Part shown: positions 34,130 to 35,395 of the stretch, piece by piece
How the letters are laid out: the number at the start of each line of letters is the position of its first letter
Numbering within the stretch: the first letter of the stretch is position 1
From: the human T2T-CHM13v2.0 reference genome, Homo sapiens
Length of the DNA stretch: 64,000 bases
Strand: one strand, 5' to 3'
Assembly (NCBI RefSeq): GCF_009914755.1
Contig: NC_060935.1
Position numbers and translations under genes: made by a program
The notes under the pieces: generated by a model
Databases searched by the model: none
Told to the model about the DNA's origin: nothing
The model's input: the letters and a program-made list of their open reading frames with translations, nothing else

Positions 34130-34630
34130 ACTTTTTAAAACAACTTAATTGAGATATTATTTGCAGTACTTAAAATTTGCCCATTTTAAGTTTACAGTTC
34201 AGTGATTTTGCGGGGGGGAAATTTACCAATTTGTGCAACCATCACCATAAACCAGTTTCGGGACATTCCCGTCACCCCAACAAGATTCCTCATACCCATT
34301 GACTGTTAATCCCCATTCTCTTTCCCACTCCAGGCAACCACTAATCTACTTTCTGTCTCTGTAAAATTGCCTTTCCTGGAAATTTTGTATATACAGAATC
34401 TTACAATATGTGATCTTTTGTGTCTGGCTTAGTTCACTGCATCATGTTTTTGAGGTCCATCCATGCAGTAGCATGTATCAGTATTTATTAACTTTTTATG
34501 GCTGAATAATATTCCTTTGGGTGGATGTACCACGTTTTGTTTATCCGTTCATCGGTTGGTGGACATTTGGGCGGTTTCCACTTTTTGGCTATTGTGAATA
34601 GGGCTACTGTGAACATTCGCATGCAAGTTC
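34130..34630 (-). mobile_element. L1MB-like 3'UTR remnant, antisense, ending ~80 nt before the exon
   Basis: TTGTGCAACCATCACCA, CAGGCAACCACTAATCTACTTTCTGTCTCT, TTTTATGGCTGAATAATATTCC, TTCCACTTTTTGGCTATTGTGAATA. Confidence 0.88.
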
Positions 34631-34707
34631 TGGGGCTGATGTTGAAACACAAAGATTAGCCAAACTGGTAACCTTCTCTCTTTTCTCTCCTCTCTTGGGT
34701 TTCTCAG

Positions 34708-35053
34708 AACCCGGCAGTGGGCAGGTGTTTGTGACTTCAGAGAACCAACTTGTGTATTACCCCAGCATCACCTATGCCATCATCGGCAGCTCCGTCATTT
34801 TTGTGCTGGTGGTGGCCCTGCTGGCACTGGTCTTGCACCACCAGCGGAAGCGGAACAACCTCATGACGCTGCCCGTGCACCGGCTGCAGCACCCTGTGCT
34901 GCTGTCCCGCCTGGTGGTCCTGGACCACCCCCACCACTGCAACGTCACCTACAACGTCAATAATGGCATCCAGTATGTGGCCAGCCAGGCGGAGCAGAAT
35001 GCGTCGGAAGTAGGCTCCCCACCCTCCTACTCCGAGGCCTTGCTGGACCAGAG
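34708..35053 (+). CDS. LDLRAD3: LDLRAD3 penultimate coding exon (346 nt): juxtamembrane segment, transmembrane helix, cytoplasmic PPSY motif
   Basis: Polypyrimidine tract plus TTCTCAG| acceptor ending at 34707 and AG|GTGTGT donor at 35054. Translation [49 protein letters not shown]...[14 protein letters not shown] has a hydrophobic helix followed by a basic stop-transfer segment; GC3- and CpG-rich. Peptide recognised from memory as LDLRAD3. Enters in phase 1, exits in phase 2. Confidence 0.96.
34708..35053 (+). ncRNA. Single-exon circular RNA circ-LDLRAD3 (346 nt)
   Basis: Exon length computed here matches my recollection of a reported 346-nt circ-LDLRAD3 (not verified against a database); an inverted repeat flanks the exon in this sequence. 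Confidence 0.7.
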
Positions 35054-35169
35054 GTGTGTGCTGGATGGAAGAGATTGAGGCGGGAGAGGTCATCCATTGC
35101 GGGGAGGGGAATAGGTGCACACACTGAGGTTCTTAGGTCTTGCCAAGAGCCTGGCTTCAGCTGCTATAG

Positions 35170-35395
35170 GCAGTGGCAGCATCTGACATTTGCCGAGTCC
35201 TCGCAAAATTCTCTACATGTATCACCTCATTTAATCCTCTTAGCACCTCGCTGAGGGAGGAAACTGATAGGAATGTTCCAAAACTGGATTATGGTGATAG
35301 TTGCACAAATCAGGAAATTTCCAAATTCTACAGATGAGGAAACTGAGGCTCTGGGATGTTAAATGACTTGTCTGAGGAACATACAGTTAGGATCC
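35170..35395 (-). mobile_element. MIR interrupted by a 58-bp L1 3'UTR fragment (35265-35322)
   Basis: CTCATTTAATCCTC ... TACAGATGAGGAAACTGAGGCT; the insert is the reverse complement of 34217-34274. Confidence 0.8.

What the first reader, a model, noticed from the sequence alone, without database searches (positions are those of the whole stretch)
34217..35322. 58-bp L1-derived inverted repeat brackets the 346-nt LDLRAD3 exon: candidate back-splicing element
Seen: 34217-34274 (GGAAATTTACCAATTTGTGCAACCATCACCATAAACCAGTTTCGGGACATTCCCGTCA) and the reverse complement of 35265-35322 align without gaps at 49/58, or 51/58 paired counting G-U. The arms lie 433 nt before and 211 nt after the exon. The downstream intron has no Alu, so ordinary inverted-Alu pairing cannot form there. 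The downstream arm is an isolated piece inside a MIR, with GAGGAAACTGA on both sides (35257, 35337). Established: intronic reverse-complementary matches promote back-splicing, and I recall this exon being reported as a circRNA. Inference: this stem drives circle formation and arose by local inverted templated copying of the upstream L1. I do not know of it being described.
Basis: partly seen in the sequence, partly recalled or inferred. Interest (0 to 1): 0.8.

Follow-up and report, generated by a model that had tools for sequence, protein, structure and literature searches.

The report
L1-derived hairpin around circ-LDLRAD3 exon
Two short, oppositely oriented pieces of an ancient L1 repeat sit in the introns on either side of the LDLRAD3 exon that forms a known circular RNA, and they are predicted to pair and bring its splice sites together; this is an ordinary mechanism, but the second piece looks like a local inverted copy of the first.

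Summary
Arms 34217-34274 and 35265-35322 are 58 nt long with 49 Watson-Crick and 2 G-U pairs. They lie 433 nt before and 211 nt after the 346-nt exon. Two papers identify that exon as circ-LDLRAD3 / hsa_circ_0006988.

The pair is the strongest inverted match between the flanking transcript parts held in the window (E 6e-12), and no Alu lies downstream. The duplex energy is -69.8 kcal/mol, against -15.8±3.7 for shuffles. The stem forms with probability about 0.96 in folds of 1.6 to 4 kb, even with a same-intron competitor included.

Origin: among 86 other genome copies sharing the 17-nt core, neither arm has a closer relative than the other arm. The arms share four rare states, which only 5 of 3321 copy pairs do. 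The downstream piece is a short insertion in a MIR with no poly(A). A local inverted templated copy is therefore favoured (about 0.65).

That the stem promotes back-splicing is inferred, not shown (about 0.6). I found no paper on how this circle is made. It is a new member of a known kind, of moderate interest.

The parts
34217..34274 (+). Upstream arm: sense-strand stretch of an ancient L1 3' end, in intron 4, 433 nt before the exon
   Evidence: 49/58 + 2 G-U; aligns with L1 3'-end copies across the genome
35265..35322 (+). Downstream arm as transcribed; the L1 sense is on the minus strand. An isolated L1 piece of about 56-58 nt inserted in a MIR, in intron 5, 211 nt after the exon
   Evidence: no other part of the upstream L1 matches nearby
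34708..35053 (+). LDLRAD3 exon 5, 346 nt, which is the whole of circ-LDLRAD3 (hsa_circ_0006988)
   Evidence: hub annotation; PMC5743505 and PMC10191788 passages; AG|..|GT splice sites
34118..34642 (+). Upstream L1 3'-end fragment that contains the upstream arm and would be the donor of the copy; it ends 65 nt before the exon
   Evidence: span covered by at least 5 blastn matches among 100 from 79 genome loci
35226..35395 (+). Host MIR (approximate limits), interrupted by the downstream arm just 5' of its conserved core
   Evidence: alignment with 15 other candidate copies found by blastn, most with the MIR core, from the window and fetched loci; the left limit rests on one copy only (36138) and
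31511..31600 (-). Same-intron competitor: a minus-strand L1-like fragment that can pair with the upstream arm (-50.5 kcal/mol)
   Evidence: it does not displace the cross-exon stem in the 4-kb minimum-energy fold
33829..33949 (+). Upstream MIR, one half of a weaker outer inverted MIR pair (partner 36040-36134)
   Evidence: (I3)
36040..36134 (-). Downstream inverted MIR, partner of 33829-33949
   Evidence: (I2, I3)

Best explanation
The two arms are pieces of the same stretch of an ancient L1 3' end in opposite orientation, one in each intron flanking LDLRAD3 exon 5. In the pre-mRNA they form an imperfect 58-bp duplex that loops out about 1 kb holding the exon. This brings the exon's 5' splice site close to its own 3' splice site, which favours back-splicing into the 346-nt circle circ-LDLRAD3. 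That is the standard mechanism of intronic complementary sequences, here built from a non-Alu, L1-derived pair. The downstream arm was most likely made by a repair or replication event that copied about 56 nt of the upstream L1, 1 kb away, in inverted orientation into a MIR. Shown here: the sequences, their pairing potential, their rank among alternative pairings, their L1 and MIR identity, and their special relatedness. Inferred: that the duplex forms in cells, that it raises circle output (about 0.6), and the copying event (about 0.65).
For: Structure:
- The arms are 58 nt with 49 Watson-Crick and 2 G-U pairs.
- The duplex energy is -69.8 kcal/mol, against -15.8±3.7 (minimum -31.2) for 500 shuffles of one arm.
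- The stem is in the minimum-energy and centroid folds of 34100-35450.
- 50 of 58 positions pair with probability above 0.5 (mean 0.96) in 34000-35600 and in 33760-36160.
- 49 of 58 cognate pairs are kept in the minimum-energy fold of 31450-35450, which includes the same-intron competitor.

Rank among alternatives:
- It is the best of 34 inverted blastn matches between 35054-39759 and 1-34707.
- It is the best of 12,432 pairs of 60-nt windows (-64.6; next -54.0; mean -22.6±7.1).
- There is no Alu downstream.
- The MIR-MIR pair has about 6e-9 expected base pairs in the ensemble.

The circle: hsa_circ_0006988 is exon 5, 346 nt.

Precedent:
- Inverted repeats of 30-40 nt suffice in minigenes (PMC4201285, abstract).
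- Inverted non-Alu MIRs are required for ciRS-7 (PMC7371899, abstract and section 12).

Origin:
- Of 89 exact genomic sites of the 17-nt core, the two arms are each other's nearest relative on the 41 other positions. They match at 33, and the best other copies reach 32 and 30.
- They share 4 rare states (positions 2, 14, 44, 52). Only 5 of 3321 family pairs share 4 or more.
- Two patterns that contain these states have no exact match in the 3.1-Gb genome except the arms.
- None of the L1-like one-mismatch hits that I fetched (37 stretches) combines them.
- The downstream piece has no poly(A), lacks the L1 3' end, and sits in an almost uninterrupted MIR.
Against: - There is no experimental or expression evidence here that the duplex forms or matters.
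- For ciRS-7, trimming the MIR to 51 nt strongly reduced the circle, and about 200 nt was needed. A 58-nt stem may therefore be weak in some contexts.
- A same-intron partner for the upstream arm (31511-31600, -50.5 kcal/mol) is transcribed before the downstream arm and could trap it kinetically.
- Several unrelated window pairs reach -50 to -54 kcal/mol.
- The upstream intron extends beyond the window and was not searched.

Against the local copy:
- By raw identity another genome copy (L003/L032) equals the upstream arm as a match to the downstream arm (49/58; 88% over 56 nt).
- The arms differ at positions 11, 12 and 35 in the same way that two L1 sub-lineages differ (8 copies with CA..AT against 25 with AG..TC).
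- Position 2 may belong to the MIR or to junction microhomology. That leaves 3 shared rare states; 12 of 3321 pairs share 3 or more.
- A small unsampled L1 sub-lineage cannot be excluded.
Confidence: 0.6

Rival explanations
1. The inverted repeat is a bystander. circ-LDLRAD3 is made for other reasons: a long upstream intron and slow linear splicing, RNA-binding proteins bridging the introns, or re-splicing of an exon-5-skipping lariat. The stem adds little.
For: Not all repeats support circularization (PMC4201285, abstract). In the ciRS-7 system short remnants of a repeat were poor drivers (PMC7371899, section 12). The upstream intron is longer than 34.7 kb (hub annotation). A same-intron competitor exists. 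No paper linking this stem to the circle turned up (listings).
Against: The stem is close to both splice sites (433 and 211 nt). It is the strongest cross-exon pairing by both measures and is predicted to form with probability about 0.96. I found one ACTAAY motif (recalled as the QKI site) in the 600 nt upstream and none in the whole downstream intron. That is only a crude test of protein bridging.
Confidence: 0.3
2. Origin rival: the two arms are independent L1-derived insertions from related sub-lineages, for example an endonuclease-independent capture of an L1 cDNA fragment at a break in the MIR. Their complementarity is then a coincidence of family membership.
For: The arms differ at positions 11, 12 and 35 as L1 sub-lineages do. 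Another genome copy matches the downstream arm as well as the upstream arm does by raw identity. 2.6% of 3655 random pairs of core-sharing copies are as similar as the arms.
Against: Four shared rare states, against 0.15% of family pairs with 4 or more. No other genome site carries the shared-state patterns exactly. No L1-like near-match combines the states. If the arms came from a sub-lineage too small to detect, two of its few members landing 1 kb apart would itself be very unlikely (inference).
Confidence: 0.3
3. The outer inverted MIR pair (33829-33949 with 36040-36134), not the L1 pair, is the working complement, as in MIR-dependent circles.
For: Inverted MIRs do flank the exon (I3). A 74-bp interrupted duplex of -79.2 kcal/mol can be drawn. 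MIR-dependent circRNAs are established (PMC7371899).
Against: Same-size control windows give -48.6±11.2 with a minimum of -80.7 (n = 150), so -79.2 is not exceptional. The L1 context scores -83.9 at the same size. The ensemble gives about 6e-9 expected MIR-MIR pairs. The blastn match is only 24 nt at 83%. The MIR spans of 121 and 95 nt are below the roughly 200 nt reported as needed.
Confidence: 0.05
4. The duplex forms but chiefly does something else. It might serve as a substrate for double-strand RNA editing or helicases, or it might promote skipping of exon 5 in the linear mRNA.
For: A listed paper's title states that reverse complementary matches promote both back-splicing and exon skipping (PMC8330042, seen in search listings only). 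Exon 5 is 346 nt, so skipping it would shift the frame (arithmetic from the annotation).
Against: I examined no editing, structure-probing or isoform data. These roles do not exclude back-splicing.
Confidence: 0.05

Closest known systems
Intronic complementary sequences (reverse complementary matches) that promote exon circularization, as dissected by Liang and Wilusz 2014 (PMC4201285, abstract read)
   Same: Inverted repeats sit in the two flanking introns, close to the splice sites, and are longer than the 30-40 nt reported as sufficient. They flank a single circularizing exon.
   Different: The repeats here are L1-derived, not Alu. The stem is imperfect (9 mismatches, 2 of them G-U). No mutagenesis has been done on this locus.
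MIR-dependent circRNAs such as ciRS-7/CDR1as (Yoshimoto et al. 2020, PMC7371899, abstract and section 12 read)
   Same: This is an Alu-free locus where an old mammalian repeat supplies the flanking complement. Deleting one arm is proposed as a clean way to remove the circle.
   Different: The arms are L1 pieces of 58 nt, not MIRs of about 200 nt. The MIR pair present here is predicted not to pair.
[quoted passage not shown]
   Same: LINE-type elements in inverted pairs are associated with circle formation.
   Different: That work concerns a plant, a genome-wide enrichment and whole elements. Here there is one human locus and a 58-nt fragment pair that looks like a local copy.
Templated insertions and template-switch mutations made during break repair or replication (microhomology-mediated, polymerase-theta type); this comparison is recalled, and I read no paper on it
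   Same: A short inverted copy of a sequence about 1 kb away, with no poly(A), no clear target-site duplication and ambiguous junction bases.
   Different: At about 56 nt it is longer than the typical polymerase-theta filler. The event is old, so the junctions are eroded and the mechanism cannot be assigned.

Membership tests
Complementary-sequence (RCM)-dependent exonic circRNA locus | The enclosed exon is documented as a back-spliced circle | tested here: met
   PMC5743505 passage (coordinates spanning 346 nt) and PMC10191788 passage (exon 5, 346 nt; the figure legend cites an RNase R stability assay). The mapping of the hg19 coordinates onto the window exon is my arithmetic from recalled hg19 gene coordinates plus the identical length.
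Complementary-sequence (RCM)-dependent exonic circRNA locus | Reverse-complementary sequences lie in the upstream and the downstream intron | tested here: met
Complementary-sequence (RCM)-dependent exonic circRNA locus | Cross-exon pairing is favoured over pairing within one intron | tested here: met
   In silico only: -69.8 kcal/mol against -50.5 (upstream arm) and -35.6 (downstream arm) for same-side partners. The stem is kept in the 4-kb fold. Co-transcriptional kinetics were not modelled.
Complementary-sequence (RCM)-dependent exonic circRNA locus | Removing or flipping an arm lowers the circle, and compensatory changes restore it | not testable with these tools
   Needs a minigene or genome editing
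Inverted-Alu-dependent circRNA | Alu elements in opposite orientation in both flanking introns | tested here: not met
   There is an Alu at 33402-33727 upstream, but none in 35054-39759
MIR-dependent circRNA (Yoshimoto 2020) | Long (about 200 nt), well-preserved inverted MIRs that pair stably | tested here: not met
   The inverted MIRs span 121 and 95 nt. The duplex energy lies within the control range. The pairing probability is about 0. Smith-Waterman scores against the MIR consensus were not computed.
Ordinary L1 retrotransposition (target-primed) for the downstream arm | Intact L1 3' end with a poly(A) tail, flanked by a target-site duplication | tested here: not met
   The piece stops inside the L1 3' region and there is no A-run. 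An 11-nt direct repeat is present. The first copy may instead be diverged MIR sequence (alignment, inconclusive).
Local templated insertion (inverted copy of a nearby donor) | The insert shares the donor's private changes rather than only family-wide states | tested here: met
   4 shared rare states (3 if position 2 is set aside). 5 of 3321 family pairs share 4 or more, and 12 of 3321 share 3 or more. The patterns carrying these states are unique in the genome.
Local templated insertion (inverted copy of a nearby donor) | Microhomology at both junctions and an empty site in outgroup species | tested here: inconclusive
   The junction bases can be read as either L1 or MIR. No other mammalian genome is on hand.

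The most novel reading that the evidence does not exclude
One mutation gave birth to a circRNA. Roughly 40-90 million years ago a repair or replication slip copied about 56 nt of an intronic L1, in reverse, into the next intron. This created the only strong hairpin around LDLRAD3 exon 5 and so switched on production of circ-LDLRAD3. Some of the changes the arms share may be compensatory pairs kept by selection on the stem. The date is my inference from 9 differences in 58 nt and recalled neutral rates, and its error is wide.
Probability: 0.35. Interest if true: 0.6.

Novelty: new member of a known kind. Interest (0 to 1): 0.42.

Why it matters
circ-LDLRAD3 is a much-cited cancer biomarker: 194 papers in the library hold one of its names. 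Functional work on it relies on knock-down across the back-splice junction. If the downstream arm (35265-35322, intronic, 211 nt from the exon) is needed for the circle, deleting it would give a clean way to remove the circle while leaving the mRNA coding sequence intact. The same logic was proposed for MIR deletion at ciRS-7, by a section heading in the outline of PMC7371899; I did not read that section. The locus is also a compact, Alu-free test case (about 1.35 kb) for how short and imperfect a stem can be and still drive back-splicing. If the origin reading holds, it is a dated example of a templated insertion creating a new RNA-processing outcome.

Tried and rejected
1. Refuting the local-copy idea from raw identity. 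The first genome searches showed another copy matching the downstream arm at 88% over 56 nt, and I expected the idea to fall. A sample anchored on the shared 17-nt core, and so unbiased at the other positions, reversed that reading.
2. A sample of L1 copies chosen through the adjacent segment 34285-34420. Of 29 loci, 5 did not cover the arm region. The other 24 were a mix of sub-families (25-41 of 58 identical to either arm) and were too heterogeneous to be a fair background.
3. Searching for a sub-lineage that carries the shared rare states. Most one-mismatch hits to the 3' pattern were not L1 at all. None that was L1 combined the states.
4. Defining the MIR interruption by blastn with the left MIR flank. 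It hit only itself. A MAFFT alignment anchored on the right flank gave a usable but loose picture, so the 11-nt direct repeat remains ambiguous between a duplication and diverged MIR sequence.
5. MIR-MIR pairing as the driver: rejected.
6. Rfam families in 33300-36900: none at gathering score.
7. Literature on how circ-LDLRAD3 is made, on a mouse orthologue, or on this stem. Searches listed only biomarker, miRNA-sponge and review papers. I judged these by titles and abstract starts, not full texts, and opened no supplements.
8. Earlier findings of this scan were not open.

Full report
**1. The observation**

The repeat finder lists arms 34217-34274 and 35265-35322 as a 58-nt inverted pair, 84% complementary, with 990 nt between them. 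My own count is 49 Watson-Crick pairs plus 2 G-U, without gaps. Similarity stops at both ends of the arms. The perfect runs are 8, 11, 10, 7 and 7 bp. The arms lie 433 nt before and 211 nt after the exon 34708-35053, which is 346 nt long and bounded by AG and GT.

**2. The exon is a published circle**

PMC5743505 (passage) gives hsa_circ_0006988 as chr11:36248634-36248980, gene LDLRAD3. PMC10191788 (passage) says circ-LDLRAD3 derives from exon 5 by back-splicing and is 346 nt long. The length and exon number fit the window exon. Placing the hg19 coordinates on it is my arithmetic from recalled gene coordinates. 194 papers in the library hold one of the circle's names.

**3. What the arms are**

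- The upstream arm lies in an L1 3'-end fragment spanning 34118-34642 on the plus strand. This is the span covered by at least 5 of 100 blastn matches from 79 genome loci.
- The downstream arm is the same L1 stretch on the minus strand. No other part of the L1 matches near it.
- Its flanks are a MIR. An alignment with 15 other candidate copies found by blastn, most of them with the MIR core, places the L1 piece in the A/T-rich stretch just before the conserved MIR core. The MIR is otherwise nearly continuous.
- The piece has no poly(A) and lacks the L1 3' end. It is therefore a true short insertion and not the usual product of L1 retrotransposition.
- I cannot name the L1 sub-families because no repeat library is on hand.

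**4. Is it the relevant complement?**

- Between 35054-39759 (intron 5 and the last exon) and 1-34707 (the part of intron 4 in the window), blastn on the opposite strand gives 34 rows at E ≤ 10. The L1 pair is first at E = 5.8e-12. The next row is a 45-nt MIR match 34 kb away at E = 7e-5.
- The duplex energy is -69.8 kcal/mol, against -15.8±3.7 (minimum -31.2) for 500 shuffles of one arm.
- Among 12,432 pairs of 60-nt windows (31700-34707 against intron 5), the L1 pair is best at -64.6. The next are -54.0, and the mean is -22.6±7.1.
- The stem appears in the minimum-energy and centroid structures of 34100-35450.
- 50 of 58 stem positions have pair probability above 0.5 (mean 0.96) in 34000-35600 and in 33760-36160.

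**5. Competitors**

- The upstream arm has a same-intron partner at 31511-31600, a minus-strand L1-like fragment, at -50.5 kcal/mol.
- In the minimum-energy fold of 31450-35450, 49 of 58 cognate cross-exon pairs are still formed. That competitor is transcribed first, and I did not model kinetics.
- The downstream arm has no same-side partner better than -35.6 kcal/mol.
- An outer inverted MIR pair (33829-33949 with 36040-36134) can be drawn as a 74-bp interrupted duplex of -79.2 kcal/mol. Same-size control windows give -48.6±11.2 with a minimum of -80.7 (n = 150), and the L1 context scores -83.9 at that size. In the ensemble the MIR pair has about 6e-9 expected base pairs.

**6. Origin of the downstream arm**

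First searches with each arm found L1 copies at 73-88% identity. One copy (L003/L032) matched the downstream arm 49/58, the same as the upstream arm does. That argued against a special relation between the arms.

Those samples were chosen by similarity to the arms, so I drew an unbiased one. The 17-nt core shared by both arms has 89 exact sites in the genome, against 1 for the reversed control. I fetched 77 of them as 102-nt stretches, already held 10, and aligned all of them. I set aside two duplicates (L144, L020_1).

- On the 41 positions outside the core the arms match at 33. Among 86 other copies the best are 32 (with the downstream arm) and 30 (with the upstream arm), and the means are 24.1 and 22.4. 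2.6% of 3655 pairs among the others reach 33.
- I dropped four sites that are plainly not L1 (L119, L120, L131, L134). The arms then share four states that each occur in at most 11% of 82 family copies: positions 2, 14, 44 and 52.
- Only 5 of 3321 family pairs share 4 or more such states, and 12 share 3 or more. The top pairs are mostly truncated copies that align to junk.
- Two patterns containing these states have no exact match in the genome other than the arms. With one mismatch they give 24 and 78 matches in all, the two arms included, against 5 and 11 for the controls.
- I fetched 37 of the near-matches. Most 3'-pattern hits are not L1, and no L1-like hit combines the states.

Points against the local copy:
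- The arms differ at positions 11, 12 and 35 just as two sub-lineages do (8 copies CA..AT, 25 copies AG..TC).
- Position 2 may be MIR sequence or junction microhomology.
- A small unsampled sub-lineage cannot be excluded.

Weighing these, I favour an inverted templated copy of the upstream L1 at about 0.65. From 9 differences in 58 nt and recalled neutral rates, the event would be roughly 40-90 million years old, with a wide error (inference).

**7. Mechanism**

Published minigene work shows that inverted repeats of about 30-40 nt next to the splice sites are enough for an exon to circularize. It shows that the repeats must pair, and also that not all repeats work (PMC4201285, abstract). Inverted MIRs are required for ciRS-7 at an Alu-free locus, but there about 200 nt was needed and a 51-nt remnant was poor (PMC7371899, abstract and section 12). 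Inverted LINE1-like pairs are enriched around maize circles (bioRxiv 10.1101/100578, passages).

By analogy, the LDLRAD3 stem would loop out the exon and favour back-splicing. This step is inferred and I put it at about 0.6. The main rival is that the stem is a bystander (0.3).

**8. Known or new**

Searches for circ-LDLRAD3 together with back-splicing, complementary sequences and flanking introns, for rodent names, and for conservation in mouse listed only biomarker, sponge and review papers. I judged these by titles and abstract starts. I opened no supplements, and genome-wide tables of complementary matches may list this pair. No Rfam family matches 33300-36900.

The mechanism is the textbook one, so this is a new member of a known kind. 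The local-copy origin is the less ordinary part.

**9. Verdict**

- Interest is moderate (0.42). The locus gives a practical handle on a much-studied circle and a neat evolutionary example, but it is not a surprise to specialists.

Noticed in passing
window 34666-34696 and 35069-35096: The polypyrimidine tract just before the exon is complementary to a purine-rich stretch 16-43 nt after the 5' splice site. It forms 21 pairs in the minimum-energy fold of 33760-36160, and a slightly wider pair of windows, 34660-34707 and 35054-35110, gives a duplex of -31.0 kcal/mol. It would be a second, very close cross-exon helix, and it might mask the 3' splice-site region.
   Followed up: partly
window 31480-31640, minus strand: An L1-like 3'-end fragment of a different sub-family lies in the same intron as the upstream arm, inverted to it. 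It is a possible same-intron decoy.
   Followed up: partly
window 34710-35053: In frame, exon 5 encodes a long hydrophobic stretch ([20 protein letters not shown]) followed by basic residues and a PPSY motif. That it is the membrane span is my reading. Since 346 is not a multiple of 3, skipping or diverting this exon would remove that span and shift the frame.
   Followed up: no
window 34204-34218: A run of G (GCGGGGGGG) sits at the 5' edge of the upstream arm where other L1 copies have a short A/T-rich stretch. It marks exactly where similarity to the downstream arm ends.
   Followed up: no
window 35335-35368 and 36105-36138: Within intron 5 the host MIR and a second, inverted MIR form a 34-nt, 82% complementary pair (I2). 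This is a same-intron pairing next to the downstream arm.
   Followed up: no
L020 and L144 (G000:C17:8540868 and 8542011): Two near-identical copies of the L1 core region lie about 1.1 kb apart on chromosome 17, on the same strand. This looks like a local duplication, unrelated to the finding.
   Followed up: no
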